A stretch of 64,000 nt of DNA from Escherichia coli. Lineage in GTDB: Bacteria > Pseudomonadota > Gammaproteobacteria > Enterobacterales > Enterobacteriaceae. The position numbers were made by a program, and so were the translations under genes. Position 1 is the stretch's first letter. Every line of letters starts with the position of its first letter. Shown one piece after another: positions 1,252 to 51,720 of this stretch. The stretch lies in NCBI RefSeq assembly GCF_003334305.1, contig NZ_QOWS01000012.1, one strand, 5' to 3'. The notes under the pieces were generated by a model. It was not told where the DNA came from, ran no database searches, and saw nothing but the letters and a program-made list of their open reading frames with translations.

Positions 1252-2715
1252 TTAAAGCAACACCACGGGCATCCACAGTAAGCCGGTAATCACCAGCAAT
1301 ACGAGGAATATCAGCCCAAAAATCGCCCCCAGTCGCCAGTAATCCGCCGTTGGCAGATAACCACTACCGTAGTAAATCGGACTGGGTCCGGTGGCGTATG
1401 GTGTAAGAATGCTCCCCAGACCAATTGCCGCGCCAACCATCAGGCAGAACACCGGCAGCGGGATTTCCGGCATCGCCAGCGCAGCGGCAATCATCATCGG
1501 TGCGAGGGCGGAGGTATACGCCGTGGCGCTGGCGAAAAAGTAGCGCAGCAGATAAAACACCACAATCAACGCCACCATCACCATCGTTGGCGAATAACCG
1601 CTTAAGCTGCCTGCTAACAGTTTGCCAAACCAGCTAATAAAACCGGTGTTGTTGAGTCCGGTAGCGAGGGTGATAAGCGAGGCCAGCCAGAAGAAAACGT
1701 TCCACGCCGCTTTATTACTGACAATGTCGTCCCAACTGATAATGCGCAGAAGCAGCATCAGTGCCACCACGCTGTAACCGACCATCGCGGCATCGATATA
1801 ATCACCGCCGAAAATCCACAGCACCAGCGCGCCTACCATCAGCCCCAGCATCCGTTTTTCACGCGAACAGAGCGGGCCCATTGCCTGCAGTTCCGTCTCT
1901 GCCCAGCGCGGCACCTGATCGCCAGACTTCAGTACCGGCGGGTACAGCACATAAGCCAGCCAGGGAACCAGCAGCACCAGCAAAATACTGAGCGGCAACA
2001 TCCCGAGGAACCAGTCGCCCCAACTCAGCGTGGCGTGAGATGCGCTTTTCATCAGTCCAATTAACAGCAAGTTTGGTGCCATCGCCGTCAAGAAAATGGC
2101 GCTGGTCACGCAGTCGGCAACAATCCCCATCCACATGATGTACGAGCCAATGCTGCGCGAACTGCTGTCGTTTGGTTGTGATTGATAGAGCGGTGGCAGG
2201 TTACGGATGATGGGATAGATAATCCCCGCACCACGCGCCGAGTTGGACGGTGTTACAGGTGCGAGGATCAGCTCGGAGAACATCACCGCATAGCCGAGAA
2301 ACAGCGTGCGATGTCCCATCTTTTTCACCAGAATCAGCGCAATGCGGCGTCCAAGCCCGGTTTTTTCATAGCCTGTGCCAAACATAAAGGCGGCGAAAAT
2401 CAGCCAGATAACCGAATTAGAAAAACCGGAAACCGCCCACGAGAGGGATTTTGCAGTGAATTTAAAGCCTGGCTGGGCGAGCTGTTCGGGGCTGAACAGC
2501 AGCCAGGGAGAGAGTATGGCGATGATGGAGATACCCACCATCGCCACCACGGCACCCGGCACGGGTTCGAGGATCAGTCCAACGATCACGCCAGTAAAAA
2601 CGGCAAAGTAGAGCCAGGTATGGTTCTCCAGCCCTGCGGGAACCGGAAGTAGAGCAATAATGGCGATGACCGCCAGCGGCGCAAGATATCGCCACCATTC
2701 AGTGGAAGGTTTCAT
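1252..2715 (-). CDS. ttdT: L-tartrate/succinate antiporter (DASS family)
   Basis: 487-aa polytopic membrane ORF; position next to ttdAB. Confidence 0.9.
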   Translation of the reverse strand: MKPSTEWWRYLAPLAVIAIIALLPVPAGLENHTWLYFAVFTGVIVGLILEPVPGAVVAMVGISIIAILSPWLLFSPEQLAQPGFKFTAKSLSWAVSGFSNSVIWLIFAAFMFGTGYEKTGLGRRIALILVKKMGHRTLFLGYAVMFSELILAPVTPSNSARGAGIIYPIIRNLPPLYQSQPNDSSSRSIGSYIMWMGIVADCVTSAIFLTAMAPNLLLIGLMKSASHATLSWGDWFLGMLPLSILLVLLVPWLAYVLYPPVLKSGDQVPRWAETELQAMGPLCSREKRMLGLMVGALVLWIFGGDYIDAAMVGYSVVALMLLLRIISWDDIVSNKAAWNVFFWLASLITLATGLNNTGFISWFGKLLAGSLSGYSPTMVMVALIVVFYLLRYFFASATAYTSALAPMMIAAALAMPEIPLPVFCLMVGAAIGLGSILTPYATGPSPIYYGSGYLPTADYWRLGAIFGLIFLVLLVITGLLWMPVVLL

Positions 2716-2762
2716 CGTGTTATGCCTGCGAAAAAGGAGAGGGGTGAGCCTCTCCGGGAGGG

Positions 2763-3368
2763 TTATTTGATGTAATGGACGTGCTCGCAGATCTCTTCCA
2801 CGATGGGATCGCGGCGTTCGGCGAACAGCTTTTTGTTTTCGGCTATCAGGTTGTTGCCGTGGGTATCAATAGAGACAATCAGCGGGCCGAACTCTTTGAC
2901 CCGGCAGACCCACAGTGACTCCGGCATCCCGAGTTCTGTCCAGTGCACTTCTTCAATCTCTTCTACCTGGGTTGCCGCCAGCACCGCGCAGCCTGCCGGG
3001 AAAATCACATGTAGCGCCTTGAATTTCTGGCAGCCTTCTTCGGTCAGCGGCCCCATACCACCTTTGCCAACCACCAGTTTCACGCCGGTCTGCTCAATAA
3101 ATTCACGTTCAAAACTTTCCATACGCATACTGGTTGTCGGGCCGACGGAGACCATCTCCCATTTGTCGCCGTTTTTGCGCACGATGGGGCCAGCGTGGAA
3201 AATCGCTTTGCCGTTGAGATCGTAAGGGATCGGACGTTTCAGTTCGATCAAGCGGCGGTGACAAACGTCACGGCAGGTCACCAGCGTACCGGTCAGGTAG
3301 ATCACATCGCCGACGCGAATATCTTGCAGATCTTCAGCTTTGATCGGGGTTGTCAGGATCTTTTTCAT
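2763..3368 (-). CDS. ttdB: L(+)-tartrate dehydratase beta subunit
   Basis: 201-aa ORF, fumarase class I C-terminal-like; overlaps ttdA stop. Confidence 0.9.
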
Positions 3369-4276
3369 AACGCGCTCCGGGTGTGAGACAGATTTTCAAA
3401 GGTGAGATCGGCATGAACCAGCAGCGTGCCGCGACGATGCGCCCAGCAGCCGGTAGAGACAGCAACGCCGATGGTTGACGGATGGCGGGCGGCAGATTCG
3501 ATATGTACGCCCATCACTGAACTGTTGCCGGTCAGCCCTTGTGGACCAATCCCCAGACGGTTGAGTCCTTCTTCCAGGCGTAGCTCCAGCTCTGCCGCTT
3601 TTGGATTGGGATGGCGGCTGCCAATCGGACGCAAAATGGCTTTACGCGAGAGTACGGCGGCGGTTTCCACCGAGGTGGCGATGCCCACGCCCACCAGTAC
3701 CGGTGGACAGGCGTTTACGGCGAGGGTGGAGATATTTTCGAAGACGAATTTCACCACGCCTTCGTAGCCTTCTGACGGCATTAACACTTTCGAGCGGCCA
3801 GGTAGCGTGCAGCCGCCGCCTGCCATGTAAACTTCGATTTCTGCATCGTCATTGTCGGGGATGATGTCCCAGGTGACCCACGGTACGCCGCTACCGGTAT
3901 TTTTGCCGGTGTTTACTTCGTCAAAAATTTCTACCGCATTGTGACGTAGTGGCGCTTTGACGGTTGCCTCTTCCACGGCTTGTTTGAGTATGCTTTGCAG
4001 CTCGCCAAGCAGTGGGAAGCGGGAACCGACTTTAACGAAGAACATAATCTCCCCGGTGTCCTGACAGGCAGGACGATTCAGGTCAATCGCTTTTTGCATG
4101 TTGTCGAACATCGTATGGTAGATAATTTTCCCCATCGACGACGTTTCGGCATCCTTTAGCTGTTTTAGTTTATCCACCACGTCATCAGGCATTCGGGTAG
4201 AAATCATGGCGGTAAAGTTAGCGACAATCTCTGTCAACTTATTCACTGCCTGTTGCTTATTACTTTCGCTCATCAT
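3365..4276 (-). CDS. ttdA: L(+)-tartrate dehydratase alpha subunit
   Basis: ORF track gives 321 aa from 4330; start placed at internal Met pair (MMSESNKQ...) giving 303 aa. Confidence 0.85.
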
Positions 4277-48391: not shown

Positions 48392-48412
48392 TCCCGGGAC
48401 GCGTTCCCGGGA
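48392..48412 (+). terminator. ygiW terminator hairpin
   Basis: tcccggga-cgcgt-tcccggga palindrome stem after stop. Confidence 0.5.
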
Positions 48413-48433
48413 ATAATTTCGCAGGGAGGCAAA

Positions 48434-48916
48434 ATGACAAACCTGACACTGGATGTAAACATTATCGATTTCCCATCAATCCCTGTGGCGATGTTGCCGC
48501 ACCGCTGTAGCCCTGAGTTGCTCAACTACAGTGTGGCGAAATTTATCATGTGGCGTAAAGAGACGAGGCTTTCTCCTGTTAACCAAAGCCAGACTTTTGG
48601 CGTCGCCTGGGACGACCCTGCCACCACCGCACCGGAAGCGTTTCGCTTTGATATCTGCGGCAGCGTTAGCGAACCGATTCCCGATAATCGTTATGGTGTG
48701 AGCAATGGTGAACTTACCGGTGGACGTTATGCCGTGGCCCGCCACGTTGGCGAGCTGGACGATATTTCACACACGATATGGGGCATTATTCGCCACTGGC
48801 TGCCTGCAAGCGGCGAGAAAATGCGTAAAGCACCGATTCTGTTTCACTACACCAATCTTGCCGAAGGGGTGACAGAGCAGCGACTGGAAACGGATGTTTA
48901 TGTGCCGTTGGCGTGA
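48434..48916 (+). CDS. ygiV: GyrI-like domain transcription factor
   Basis: 160-aa ORF; synteny after ygiW. Confidence 0.8.
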   Translation: MTNLTLDVNIIDFPSIPVAMLPHRCSPELLNYSVAKFIMWRKETRLSPVNQSQTFGVAWDDPATTAPEAFRFDICGSVSEPIPDNRYGVSNGELTGGRYAVARHVGELDDISHTIWGIIRHWLPASGEKMRKAPILFHYTNLAEGVTEQRLETDVYVPLA

Positions 48917-49461
48917 TGGGGAATCTTTACCGGAGTGTGAGCCAAATCACTCGCGATAAGTTTGAGCGAACAATGCCACAGGCGTATTGTTGTTGGGCTT
49001 ATAATTTCTCCGGTAAGGAATACCATGTATACGCGAAATTTATTATCCGGTGCGCCGTAAGCCGTCTCGGGGGTATCCATGAGCAAGCCGCACTTATGGC
49101 AGGAGGCGCGGGGCACTGGTGGAGACACAGCTAAACTGGGCTGAACCGTATACTTACAGTCGACTACTTTGATGCTTTAGGCTTCCCTGGACTCGCATAA
49201 CCTCAACTTCTCGAATCGCCCGGAGCGGACCCCCATGCCGAGTGGTGTGGCATGGGCGCAACCTTGTGCTGCCCTCTATGCCGATCAAGTCTACAGCAAA
49301 GAGTTGTATATCAAGGCACATTGATGCCTTTATCGCCGTCGGAGCACGTCCGGCGGCGCTATTCACGCTGATCTCCTGTGACTCGACGCGGCAGATAATG
49401 TAGTATCTCCGGCAATATTGCCCCTTTGAAGGCTGGCGAATAAGTTGAGGAATCAGAATTA

Positions 49462-51720
49462 ATGAGCGATATGGCAGAGCGCCTTGCGCTACATGAATTT
49501 ACGGAAAACGCCTACTTAAACTACTCCATGTACGTGATCATGGACCGTGCGTTGCCGTTTATTGGCGATGGTCTTAAACCTGTTCAGCGCCGCATTGTGT
49601 ATGCGATGTCTGAACTGGGCCTGAATGCCAGCGCCAAATTTAAAAAATCGGCCCGTACCGTCGGTGACGTACTGGGTAAATACCATCCGCACGGCGATAG
49701 CGCCTGTTATGAAGCGATGGTCCTGATGGCGCAGCCGTTCTCTTACCGTTATCCGCTGGTTGATGGTCAGGGGAACTGGGGCGCGCCGGACGATCCGAAA
49801 TCGTTCGCGGCAATGCGTTACACCGAATCCCGGTTGTCGAAATATTCCGAGCTGCTATTGAGCGAGCTGGGGCAGGGGACGGCTGACTGGGTGCCAAACT
49901 TCGACGGCACTTTGCAGGAGCCGAAAATGCTGCCTGCTCGTCTGCCAAACATTTTGCTTAACGGCACCACCGGTATTGCCGTCGGCATGGCGACCGATAT
50001 TCCACCGCATAACCTGCGTGAAGTAGCTCAGGCGGCAATCGCATTAATCGACCAGCCGAAAACCACGCTCGATCAGCTGCTGGATATCGTGCAGGGGCCG
50101 GATTATCCGACTGAAGCGGAAATTATCACTTCGCGCGCCGAGATCCGTAAAATCTACGAGAACGGACGTGGTTCAGTGCGTATGCGCGCGGTGTGGAAGA
50201 AAGAAGATGGCGCGGTGGTTATCAGCGCATTACCGCATCAGGTTTCAGGTGCGCGCGTACTGGAGCAAATTGCTGCGCAAATGCGCAATAAAAAGCTGCC
50301 GATGGTTGACGATCTGCGCGATGAATCTGACCACGAGAACCCGACCCGTCTGGTGATTGTGCCGCGTTCCAACCGCGTGGATATGGATCAGGTGATGAAC
50401 CACCTCTTCGCTACCACCGATCTGGAAAAGAGCTATCGCATTAACCTCAATATGATCGGTCTGGATGGTCGTCCGGCGGTGAAAAACCTGCTGGAAATCC
50501 TCTCCGAATGGCTGGTGTTCCGTCGCGATACCGTGCGCCGCCGACTGAACTATCGTCTGGAGAAAGTCCTCAAGCGCCTGCATATCCTGGAAGGTTTGCT
50601 GGTGGCGTTTCTCAACATCGACGAAGTGATTGAGATCATTCGTAACGAAGATGAACCGAAACCGGCGCTGATGTCGCGGTTTGGCCTTACGGAAACCCAG
50701 GCGGAAGCGATCCTCGAACTGAAACTGCGTCATCTTGCCAAACTGGAAGAGATGAAGATTCGCGGTGAGCAGAGTGAGCTGGAAAAAGAGCGCGACCAGT
50801 TGCAGGGCATTTTGGCTTCCGAGCGTAAAATGAATAACCTGCTGAAGAAAGAACTGCAGGCAGACGCGCAAGCCTACGGTGACGATCGTCGTTCGCCGTT
50901 GCAGGAACGCGAAGAAGCGAAAGCGATGAGCGAGCACGACATGCTGCCGTCTGAACCTGTCACCATTGTGCTGTCGCAGATGGGTTGGGTACGCAGCGCT
51001 AAAGGCCATGATATCGACGCGCCGGGCCTGAATTATAAAGCGGGTGATAGCTTCAAAGCGGCGGTGAAAGGTAAGAGCAACCAACCGGTAGTGTTTGTTG
51101 ATTCCACCGGTCGTAGCTATGCCATCGACCCGATTACGCTGCCGTCGGCGCGTGGTCAGGGCGAGCCGCTCACCGGCAAATTAACGTTGCCGCCTGGGGC
51201 GACCGTTGACCATATGCTGATGGAAAGCGACGATCAGAAACTGCTGATGGCTTCCGATGCGGGTTACGGTTTCGTCTGCACCTTTAACGATCTGGTGGCG
51301 CGTAACCGTGCAGGTAAGGCTTTGATCACCTTACCGGAAAATGCCCATGTTATGCCGCCGGTGGTGATTGAAGATGCTTCCGATATGCTGCTGGCAATCA
51401 CTCAGGCAGGCCGTATGTTGATGTTCCCGGTAAGCGATCTGCCGCAGCTGTCGAAGGGCAAAGGCAACAAGATTATCAACATTCCATCGGCAGAAGCCGC
51501 GCGTGGAGAAGATGGTCTGGCGCAATTGTACGTTCTGCCGCCGCAAAGCACGCTGACCATTCATGTTGGGAAACGCAAAATTAAACTGCGCCCGGAAGAG
51601 TTACAGAAAGTCACTGGCGAACGTGGACGCCGCGGTACGTTGATGCGCGGTTTGCAGCGTATCGATCGTGTTGAGATCGACTCTCCTCGCCGTGCCAGCA
51701 GCGGTGATAGCGAAGAGTAA
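49462..51720 (+). CDS. parC: DNA topoisomerase IV subunit A
   Basis: 752-aa ORF; active-site region AAMRYTE. Confidence 0.95.

What the first reader, a model, noticed from the sequence alone, without database searches (positions are those of the whole stretch)
48917..49461. ygiV abuts parC: mqsR-mqsA-ygiS interval absent, replaced by 545 bp of non-coding-looking DNA
In K-12 (from memory) the mqsRA toxin-antitoxin pair and ygiS lie between ygiV and parC. Here parC starts 545 bp after the ygiV stop. That interval has only short overlapping ORFs of 70-76 aa on both strands with no convincing start signals or recognisable domains, plus a single TAACCT half-site (49199-49204) without the palindromic partner of the MqsA operator. 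This is a strain-variable junction whose content I cannot assign; it could hold a small RNA or a deletion scar.
Basis: partly seen in the sequence, partly recalled or inferred. Interest (0 to 1): 0.45.

Follow-up and report, generated by a model that had tools for sequence, protein, structure and literature searches.

The report
Dead transposon-intron relic replacing ygiS
The 545 bp between ygiV and parC is not a hidden gene: it holds the two stumps of the ygiS gene around a 242-bp dead remnant of an insertion sequence with a group II intron inside it, and this ordinary, already catalogued arrangement is shared by about a quarter of E. coli genomes.

Summary
ygiV ends at 48916, parC starts at 49462, and K-12 has mqsR-mqsA-ygiS in between (2775 bp).

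The interval resolves fully into known pieces:
- 48917-49024: the normal ygiV-ygiS intergenic region.
- 49025-49046: the first 22 nt of ygiS, ending in TTAT.
- 49047-49060: 14 nt identical to the left end of an IS609-like (IS200/IS605-family) element.
- 49061-49285: the 3' end of a class C group II intron. It holds the last 44 maturase codons with an in-frame stop, then decayed domains V and VI.
- 49286-49288: CAA, the last 3 nt of the IS right end.
- 49289-49324: the last 36 nt of ygiS.
- 49325-49461: the normal 137-bp parC upstream region.

mqsRA was not deleted. The same empty junction occurs in ygiS-intact E. coli (O157:H7 and two lineages about 2% divergent) and in a 90%-identical Escherichia lineage, so mqsRA is an insertion in K-12-like strains. 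ygiS is the gene that was lost. Both breakpoints lie just 3' of TTAT, the IS target.

Among 5426 complete genomes, about 25% share this haplotype, 42% carry mqsRA and 75% keep ygiS. The intron piece is already catalogued as E.c.F12 (Leclercq & Cordaux 2012). I found no support for a small RNA. Low interest.

The parts
48434..48916 (+). ygiV (160 aa), left boundary of the interval
   Evidence: ORF. 98.8% identical to K-12 ygiV. Annotated as ygiV in the identical genome E2865.
48917..49024 (+). Ancestral ygiV-ygiS intergenic region. It contains the mqsRA-empty site (GGGAAT, 48919-48924) and a ygiS leader bounded by a 17-nt inverted repeat.
   Evidence: Identical junction in the ygiS-intact, mqsRA-free genomes L009, L010 and L011. 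48924-49046 is 100% identical to the K-12 mqsA-ygiS spacer plus the ygiS start. Inverted repeat 48919-48935 / 49008-49024. RNA fold -40.8 kcal/mol, z = -4.4, pairs the ygiS Shine-Dalgarno.
49025..49046 (+). 5' stump of ygiS: ATG plus 19 nt, ending in TTAT. Reads MYTRNLLSGAP* into the insert.
   Evidence: Identical to ygiS nt 1-22 of K-12 and O157:H7.
49047..49060 (+). First 14 nt (CCGGTGCGCCGTAA) of the left end of an IS609-like IS200/IS605-family element, abutting the TTAT target
   Evidence: 14/14 identity to the left ends of two complete copies at unrelated sites (L016 near gltX/yfeD, L017 near yedK). Both of those are also preceded by TTAT. The junction query matched exactly 60 nt (46 + 14) in relic genomes.
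49061..49285 (+). 3'-terminal about 225 nt of a class C group II intron (catalogued as fragment E.c.F12), decayed
   Evidence: 91% identical to the 3' end of the full-length intron in pHum4b (L007) and 84% to an S. meliloti intron. L007 has Rfam group-II D1-D4 hits. In the 98.4%-identical copy L013 the intron ORF is annotated ltrA and matches TIGR04416 at 326.8 bits. E.c.F12 in IAI1, 3251207-3251324(-), maps to window 49168-49285.
49066..49200 (+). Last 44 codons of the intron-encoded maturase, with an in-frame stop (TAA 49132-49134, where L013 encodes Glu) and the native stop TAA at 49198-49200
   Evidence: tblastn with the L013 maturase C-terminus: 39/44 identical, E = 3e-28. Coordinates checked.
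49215..49246 (+). Intron domain V remnant (CGC triad with central G-U, 2-nt bulge, 4-nt loop), 3 pairs broken in this copy
   Evidence: Consensus fold of 7 copies. Full-length copy folds at -22.4 kcal/mol, window copy at -10.4.
49248..49285 (+). Intron domain VI remnant with a bulged A eighth from the intron end (7 nt upstream of the last nucleotide); the intron ends ...GCCGAT
   Evidence: The 3' boundary is defined by comparing copies in five different flanks.
49286..49288 (+). CAA: the last 3 nt of the IS609-like right end (...GGATGT|intron|CAA). With the intron's final T it reads TCAA.
   Evidence: The IS right end is ...GGAGGATGTCAA followed by unrelated flanks in L014, L016 and L017. The intron in L007/L013 begins right after GGATGT. 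CAA is not ygiS sequence: K-12 has TAT there.
49289..49324 (+). 3' stump of ygiS: last 36 nt (VYSKELYIKAH*). In intact ygiS these follow a TTAT at nt 1569-1572.
49325..49461 (+). Normal ygiS-parC intergenic region (137 bp), presumably holding the parC promoter
   Evidence: The 173-bp tail-plus-intergenic segment 49289-49461 is 99.4-100% identical to K-12, O157:H7 and the two divergent ygiS-intact genomes.
49462..51720 (+). parC (752 aa), right boundary

Best explanation
The interval is an inert composite scar, not a gene or a regulatory element.

Shown:
- The ygiV-ygiS spacer is the ancestral, never-occupied site into which K-12-like lineages later received the mqsRA module.
- ygiS survives only as its first 22 nt and last 36 nt.
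- Between the two stumps lie 242 bp of mobile-element debris: 14 nt of the left end of an IS609-like IS200/IS605-family element, about 225 nt of the 3' end of a class C group II intron (tail of the maturase ORF, domain V, domain VI), and the terminal CAA of the IS right end.
- Both ygiS breakpoints lie immediately 3' of a TTAT. The two complete copies of this IS examined here also insert after TTAT.

Inferred history:
1. An IS609-like element inserted 3' of TTAT in ygiS.
2. The 1550 bp of ygiS between TTAT(19-22) and TTAT(1569-1572) was lost. Either two IS copies, one at each TTAT, recombined, or the single-strand transposase TnpA cut both at the IS right end and at the downstream TTAT target.
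3. A class C intron, which homes to sites just downstream of DNA hairpins, retrohomed 6 nt after the IS right-end hairpin, as it did in other copies of this IS on plasmids.
4. A later internal deletion removed everything from IS nt 15 to the end of the intron ORF.
The order of steps 2 and 3 is not determined.

What remains has no transposase, no IS hairpins, no intron domains I-IV, a stop codon in the ORF tail and a broken domain V. It can neither transpose nor splice. parC keeps its own 137-bp upstream region. The event is old: a lineage whose flanks are 1.3-1.7% divergent carries the same junctions with 4.5% divergence in the relic. It is now fixed in about 25% of sequenced E. coli; the 2012 catalogue lists phylogroup B1 strains and Shigella as hosts.
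For: Anatomy:
- BLAST against K-12 splits the interval into a K-12-homologous left part, a foreign core and a K-12-homologous right part.
- The core is 91% identical to the 3' end of a full-length intron. L007 has Rfam group-II D1-D4 hits, and the ORF of the 98.4%-identical copy L013 is a TIGR04416 group II RT/maturase.
- The maturase tail matches at 39/44 residues, E = 3e-28, with an internal stop.
- Domains V and VI are recovered by a consensus fold of 7 copies. Four pairs show compensatory changes, there is a CGC triad, and a bulged A lies eighth from the intron end. The window copy is destabilised.

IS ends:
- CCGGTGCGCCGTAA is the exact start of two complete IS copies at unrelated loci, each preceded by TTAT. 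The right end GGATGTCAA is followed by unrelated flanks at three loci.
- The intron in L007/L013 sits between GGATGT and CAA.
- Five intron copies in different flanks all carry CAA or CGA after the intron end.
- TTAT occurs at 0.53% of positions, so two junctions both falling after TTAT has a chance of about 3e-5.

mqsRA direction:
- The empty junction is identical in ygiS-intact genomes of several lineages.
- A 90.4%-identical Escherichia lineage also has an empty site.
- mqsRA is >=99% identical in all carriers.

Population: 1354 genomes carry the whole interval, 1357 the relic, 2283 mqsRA and 4053 ygiS, out of 5426.

Age: RM14516 has the same junctions with a relic 95.5% identical, against 98.3-98.7% in the flanking genes.

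Prior record: E.c.F12, class C, in B1 strains and Shigella, at exactly these coordinates in IAI1 (PMC3522654 Tables S2 and S3).
Against: - Rfam gives no group II hit in the window. The same D5-D6 model also misses the full-length relatives L007 and L008, whose D1-D4 regions are detected, so this is a model blind spot and not evidence of absence.
- No intermediate survives. None of 5426 genomes has a full IS left end at ygiS nt 22 or an intron-free IS right end at nt 1572. The order of events and the deletion mechanism are therefore inferred only.
- The IS assignment of the left edge rests on 14 nt, and that of the right edge on 3 nt.
- The name IS609 and the TnpA cleavage rules (left target tetranucleotide, right TCAA) come from my knowledge of IS608/IS609. 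They were not tested here.
- Transcription of the region was not measured.
Confidence: 0.88

Rival explanations
1. A single deletion removed mqsR-mqsA-ygiS from a K-12-like ancestor, and the 545 bp is the resulting scar.
For: K-12 has all three genes here, and both ends of ygiS are still present.
Against: - The mqsRA-free junction is identical in genomes with intact ygiS and is also empty in a 90%-identical Escherichia lineage.
- The 123 bp between mqsA and ygiS is retained intact, so two separate breaks would be needed.
- 242 bp of foreign DNA sits inside ygiS.
Confidence: 0.03
2. A 5'-truncated group II intron retrohomed directly into ygiS and caused a target deletion. No insertion sequence was involved.
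For: Intron copies elsewhere share a 3' end with variable 5' truncation. GTGCGCC at 49050-49056 resembles an intron 5' end (L007 starts GTGCGCCCAGC).
Against: - The left edge matches the IS left end at 14/14 nt, against 7/7 for the intron start.
- CAA after the intron is IS sequence, not ygiS.
- Both junctions follow TTAT, the IS target.
- Class C introns insert after hairpins (PMC1702495), and neither ygiS site has one.
Confidence: 0.04
3. The relic, or the ygiS leader now fused to it, has been co-opted as a small RNA or as a cis-regulator of parC, for example through read-through from the ygiS promoter.
For: - It is retained at >=99% identity in 1208 genomes.
- The ygiS leader forms a very stable hairpin.
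- No terminator-like site lies between the relic and parC.
Against: - No Rfam family and no promoter-like site.
- The 3' 90 nt fold no better than shuffles (z = -0.68).
- Domain V has lost pairs and the ORF has a stop.
- The relic diverges faster (4.5%) than the flanking genes (1.3-1.7%), as expected for neutral DNA.
- The high identity mostly reflects close relatedness of the carrier strains.
Confidence: 0.06

Closest known systems
E.c.F12, a group II intron fragment catalogued by Leclercq & Cordaux 2012 (PLoS One 7:e52268, PMC3522654, Tables S2 and S3)
   Same: It is the same locus and the same DNA. It is listed for E. coli IAI1, SE11, E24377A and 55989 and for several Shigella. IAI1 coordinates 3251207-3251324(-) fall between parC and ygiV and map to window 49168-49285. 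It is assigned to class C.
   Different: The catalogue records only 118 bp, at 79% identity to P.s.I1, and the table rows I read give no context for it. Here the intron-derived stretch extends to about 225 nt. It is shown to be nested in an IS609-like remnant inside the two stumps of ygiS, and a 91%-identical full-length relative is identified.
Bacterial class C (IIC) group II introns, e.g. B.h.I1 (Toor et al. 2006, PMC1702495)
   Same: - The full-length relatives sit a few nt downstream of a DNA hairpin: the IS right-end hairpin in L007/L013 and a terminator-like hairpin in S. meliloti L008.
- Domain V has a CGC triad and domain VI a bulged A.
- The intron is about 1.8 kb with an RT/maturase ORF.
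   Different: The window copy is only the last about 12% of an intron. It has no domains I-IV, no 5' GUGYG and no functional ORF. It is a fragment, not a functional member.
IS609 / IS608-type IS200/IS605-family insertion sequences (tnpA plus tnpB/insQ; single-strand 'peel and paste' transposition)
   Same: - Exact left-end terminus.
- Insertion 3' of a fixed tetranucleotide (TTAT) without target duplication.
- Right end terminating in TCAA. The cleavage rules are from my knowledge of IS608.
   Different: Only 14 + 3 nt of the IS remain. There are no subterminal hairpins and no tnpA or tnpB. The two junctions lie at two different TTAT sites 1550 bp apart, so a deletion accompanied or followed the insertion.
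K-12 ygiV-mqsR-mqsA-ygiS-parC locus (MqsRA type II toxin-antitoxin; YgiS deoxycholate-binding protein)
   Same: Same chromosomal position and the same flanking genes. The ygiS promoter region, ygiS start, ygiS end and parC upstream region are 99-100% identical.
   Different: There is no mqsR, no mqsA and no operator palindromes. ygiS is reduced to 58 nt.
IStrons and the transposon-encoded introns of IS605-family elements (bioRxiv 10.1101/2023.11.20.567912)
   Same: An intron is nested at the end of an IS200/IS605-family element, next to the region that gives rise to the TnpB guide RNA.
   Different: Those are group I introns that are an integral part of the transposon. Here a group II class C intron secondarily invaded the IS right end, and in the window everything is dead.

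Membership tests
Group II intron (class C) | Sequence homology to a bona fide full-length intron (ribozyme plus RT/maturase ORF) | tested here: met
   91% identity over 222 nt to the 3' end of the L007 intron, and homology to the 3' end of the L013 intron. L007 has Rfam D1-D4 hits. The L013 ORF matches TIGR04416 at 326.8 bits, above the 300-bit cut-off.
Group II intron (class C) | Domain V (catalytic triad, 2-nt bulge, capping loop) and domain VI with a bulged branch-point A near the 3' end | tested here: met
   The consensus fold of 7 copies gives both helices, with compensatory changes in 4 pairs, a CGC triad with central G-U, and a bulged A eighth from the end. The window copy has 3 broken domain V pairs. 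Rfam RF00029 gives no hit but also misses the full-length relatives.
Group II intron (class C) | Domains I-IV and the 5' GUGYG boundary | tested here: not met
   Absent from the window; only the last about 225 nt remain. The GTGCG at 49050 belongs to the IS left end.
Group II intron (class C) | Intact intron-encoded RT/maturase | tested here: not met
   Only the last 44 codons remain, with an in-frame TAA at 49132-49134.
Group II intron (class C) | Class C hallmark: insertion shortly downstream of a hairpin or terminator motif | tested here: met
   In the full-length relatives the intron lies 6 nt after the IS right-end hairpin in L007/L013, and 7 nt after a terminator-like hairpin in L008. 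The feature is as described in PMC1702495. Class C was also assigned in PMC3522654. In the window copy the upstream hairpin has been deleted.
IS200/IS605-family insertion sequence (IS609-like) | Characteristic left-end terminus abutting a fixed target tetranucleotide, with no target duplication | tested here: met
   TTAT|CCGGTGCGCCGTAA is identical to two complete copies at unrelated loci. The 60-nt junction match is confirmed.
IS200/IS605-family insertion sequence (IS609-like) | Right end terminating in ...TCAA | tested here: met
   CAA at 49286-49288 follows the intron exactly as in L007/L013. Intact right ends read GGATGTCAA|flank at 3 loci. Only 3 nt of evidence in the window itself.
IS200/IS605-family insertion sequence (IS609-like) | Subterminal hairpins and the tnpA/tnpB genes | tested here: not met
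   Absent. The insert is 242 bp, with no such ORFs or hairpins.
MqsRA type II toxin-antitoxin locus | mqsR and mqsA genes and the palindromic MqsA operator | tested here: not met
   No similarity to the K-12 mqsRA module in the interval. There is one TAACCT with no partner.
Known small RNA or cis-regulatory RNA | Match to a curated RNA family, or structure beyond chance | tested here: not met
   No Rfam match at E <= 1, at E <= 10 for the 3' part, or at gathering score. z = -0.68 for 49196-49285.

The most novel reading that the evidence does not exclude
The loss of ygiS was a one-step adjacent deletion catalysed by the IS200/IS605 single-strand transposase. TnpA would cut at the IS right end (TCAA) and at a downstream TTAT target 1.55 kb away, then join them. 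I am not aware that this activity has been documented in natural genomes. The loss may then have been kept in phylogroup B1 and Shigella because removing the deoxycholate-importing YgiS helps in bile. In addition, the right-end hairpin of this TnpB-carrying IS would be a dedicated homing site for a class C group II intron, placing an intron inside the 3' end of the TnpB guide-RNA gene.
Probability: 0.2. Interest if true: 0.4.

Novelty: already known. Interest (0 to 1): 0.14.

Why it matters
Mostly as a clean-up: it shows that this 'unassignable' intergenic DNA needs no new biology.

- It corrects the direction of the polymorphism. mqsRA is an insertion present in 42% of complete genomes, and its absence is not a deletion.
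- Only the strains that carry both genes, at most 42% of complete genomes, can have the MqsR-YgiS deoxycholate link described in K-12. About 33% by subtraction have ygiS without mqsRA, and 25% have neither. This is relevant to the disputed physiological role of MqsRA (PMC6918082).
- For annotation, the 242 bp could be labelled as an IS200/IS605 and group II intron remnant, and the flanking 22 + 36 nt as a ygiS pseudogene.
- The nested arrangement (intron in IS in gene) and the TTAT-to-TTAT deletion are a small natural example of how IS200/IS605 elements and class C introns interact and erode genes.

Tried and rejected
1. Rfam scans of the region at E <= 1 and E <= 10 and of the whole window at gathering score found nothing in the interval. 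A control showed that the D5-D6 model also misses the full-length relatives.

2. I first took the intron for a class D, RmInt1-like element because it matched S. meliloti plasmids. I rejected this for three reasons: the S. meliloti copy sits after a terminator-like hairpin, domain V has a CGC triad, and the 2012 catalogue assigns class C.

3. The first BLAST breakpoints (foreign core 49047-49282, ygiS tail 42 nt) were 6 nt off, because GATCAA fortuitously resembles the GATTAT of ygiS. I corrected them to 49047-49288 and 36 nt.

4. An exact 26-mer scan of one genome per species, meant to find outgroups, returned a single locus with only 66 nt on the ygiS side. That was enough to show an mqsRA-empty site in a 90%-identical lineage, but not to see ygiS there.

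5. A concatenated four-junction query for intermediates was uninformative, because the repeated IS ends were joined into artefactual places. Two single-junction queries then found no genome with a full IS at either ygiS TTAT.

6. tblastn of YgiS against the interval found only the two stumps. The core is therefore not degenerate ygiS.

7. Literature searches for 'group II intron' with IS609 found nothing.

Full report
**Observation**

ygiV (48434-48916) and parC (49462-51720) are separated by 545 bp. In K-12 MG1655 the same two genes are separated by 2775 bp holding mqsR, mqsA and ygiS. The interval contains only mechanical ORFs of 70-76 aa, and RefSeq annotates nothing there in identical genomes.

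**Dissection against K-12**

BLAST of 48400-49600 against the K-12 locus gave three homologous blocks:
- ygiV up to 2 nt past its stop.
- 48924-49046, 100% identical to the K-12 mqsA-ygiS spacer plus the first 22 nt of ygiS.
- The end of ygiS, the 137-bp ygiS-parC spacer and parC.

Inspecting the junctions places the foreign core at 49047-49288 (242 bp), between ygiS nt 22 and the last 36 nt of ygiS. The 6 nt that BLAST added to the right block are a chance resemblance of GATCAA to GATTAT. tblastn with YgiS finds only the two stumps, so the core is not decayed ygiS.

**mqsRA was never here**

Genomes that keep ygiS but lack mqsRA have ygiV, then 108 bp, then ygiS. These are O157:H7 F8492, isolate 127 and APEC 16-1068; the last two are about 2% divergent in the flanks. 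Their junction TGATGGGGAATCTTTACCGG is identical to the window's. An Escherichia genome only 90.4% identical over 2.2 kb also runs from the ygiV stop straight into CTTTACCGGAGTG. The K-12 mqsRA module is >=99% identical in all 2299 genomes that carry it. The simplest reading is that the empty site is ancestral and mqsRA is a single, fairly recent insertion. This agrees with published views that chromosomal toxin-antitoxin modules are horizontally moving accessory genes, unevenly spread over phylogroups (PMC7167474 and PMC5120126).

**The core is the 3' end of a group II intron**

The core has weaker (83-84%) partial matches on many E. coli plasmids. The copies are truncated at different 5' points but share one 3' end. 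One such copy follows a group II RT pseudogene.

A 91%-identical match lies at the 3' end of a full-length element of about 1.8 kb in plasmid pHum4b (L007); a 98.4%-identical copy of that element is in a chromosome (L013). L007 has Rfam group-II D1-D4 hits, and the L013 ORF matches TIGR04416 at 326.8 bits.

Window 49066-49197 encodes the last 44 residues of that protein (39/44 identical, E = 3e-28). It has an in-frame TAA at 49132-49134, and the native stop is at 49198-49200.

A consensus fold of seven copies recovers two domains:
- A domain V-like helix (49215-49246) with a CGC triad, a central G-U, a 2-nt bulge and a 4-nt loop.
- A domain VI-like helix (49248-49283) with a bulged A eighth from the intron end.

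The window's domain V has three broken pairs (-10.4 against -22.4 kcal/mol). Rfam's D5-D6 model finds nothing here, but it also misses the full-length relatives.

I first thought of class D. Three things point to class C instead: the hairpin-adjacent insertion sites, the CGC triad, and the published assignment. Class C introns are known to sit downstream of terminator-like or other inverted repeats (PMC1702495).

**The intron is nested in an IS609-like element**

In L007 and L013 the intron starts right after ...CCACGT-loop-ACGTGGAGGATGT. That is the right-end hairpin region of an insQ/tnpB-carrying IS200/IS605-family element.

Three intact copies of this IS at unrelated loci end ...GGATGTCAA and then diverge. 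Two of them begin TTAT|CCGGTGCGCCGTAAAACCCC....

The window core begins TTAT|CCGGTGCGCCGTAA, a 14/14 match, and ends ...GCCGAT|CAA|GTCTAC. CAA is not ygiS sequence. In intact ygiS the right breakpoint is also preceded by TTAT (nt 1569-1572). TTAT occupies 0.53% of positions, so two junctions both falling after TTAT by chance has a probability of about 3e-5.

The other intron copies (L003, L004, L005, L007) are likewise followed by CAA or CGA and then by unrelated DNA. This intron therefore repeatedly homed into the right end of this IS.

**History (inferred)**

1. The IS inserted after a TTAT in ygiS.
2. The 1550 bp between the two TTAT sites was lost, either by recombination between two IS copies or by TnpA cutting at the right end and at the downstream target.
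3. The intron invaded the IS right end.
4. An internal deletion ran from IS nt 15 into the end of the intron ORF.

No intermediate survives among 5426 complete genomes, so the order and mechanism remain open.

A second lineage (RM14516) has identical junctions. Its relic is 95.5% identical, while the flanking genes are 98.3-98.7% identical. The event is therefore old and the relic drifts like neutral DNA.

**Population and prior knowledge**

| Feature | Genomes of 5426 | Share |
|---|---|---|
| Whole 545-bp interval | 1354 | 25% |
| Relic | 1357 | 25% |
| Intact ygiS | 4053 | 75% |
| mqsRA | 2283 | 42% |

Leclercq & Cordaux (2012) list a class C fragment, E.c.F12, of 118 bp. Its hosts are the B1 strains IAI1, SE11, E24377A and 55989 and several Shigella. 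Its IAI1 coordinates fall between parC and ygiV and map to window 49168-49285, ending exactly at my intron 3' boundary. The intron fragment is therefore already catalogued. The IS ends, the ygiS stumps and the TTAT-bounded deletion are added detail.

**Function**

Nothing suggests one.
- There is no promoter-like site. The only terminator-like hit lies in the ancestral ygiS leader.
- There is no RNA family match.
- There is no excess structure in the 3' 90 nt of the relic.
- parC retains its normal upstream region.

The one biologically relevant consequence is that these strains lack YgiS as well as MqsRA. The proposed, and disputed, MqsR-ygiS-deoxycholate link (PMC6918082) cannot operate in them.

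**Verdict**

This is an ordinary, old and already catalogued mobile-element scar. Interest is low.

Noticed in passing
window 48919-49024: The ygiV-ygiS spacer is bounded by a 17-nt inverted repeat (48919-48935 / 49008-49024). As RNA it forms a long hairpin (-40.8 kcal/mol, z = -4.4) that pairs the ygiS Shine-Dalgarno AAGGA, so it could be a translational control element of ygiS. In K-12 the mqsRA module is inserted exactly at the outer edge of the left arm, replacing GGGAAT.
   Followed up: partly
L007 2024-3827; L013 about 1675-3510; L003, L004 and L005 around 4000-4190: A class C group II intron lineage repeatedly occupies the right end of an IS609-like, TnpB-carrying IS, between GGATGT and the terminal CAA and 6 nt after the right-end hairpin. 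That is also where the TnpB guide RNA should end. Only 3 of 5426 genomes have a near-full-length copy, and the copies examined (L007, L013) have a disrupted ORF. Relics occur at 196 places on plasmids.
   Followed up: partly
L007 3741-3830; L008 2984-3085; window 49196-49288: Rfam RF00029 (group II intron domains V-VI) does not detect this intron lineage even in full-length copies whose D1-D4 regions score well. This is a blind spot of the model for these class C-type domain V sequences.
   Followed up: yes
L015 (NZ_JAATUR010000001.1): A genome labelled Escherichia coli SCPM-O-B-8794 is only 90.4% identical to the window over 2.2 kb of qseB-ygiW-ygiV. This looks like a cryptic Escherichia clade and not E. 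coli proper.
   Followed up: no
K-12 module L001:4821-5747 across E. coli genomes: The mqsRA module is >=99% identical in all 2299 carrier genomes and never occurs on plasmids in this set. One strain (203740, hit H111) has an IS1 inserted in mqsR.
   Followed up: no
window 15445-15594, 15821-15970, 24663-24811, 58888-58951: The expected RNA genes of this chromosomal region are present: two Sib antitoxin RNAs, an FMN riboswitch and the ES173 sRNA. Nothing unusual.
   Followed up: no
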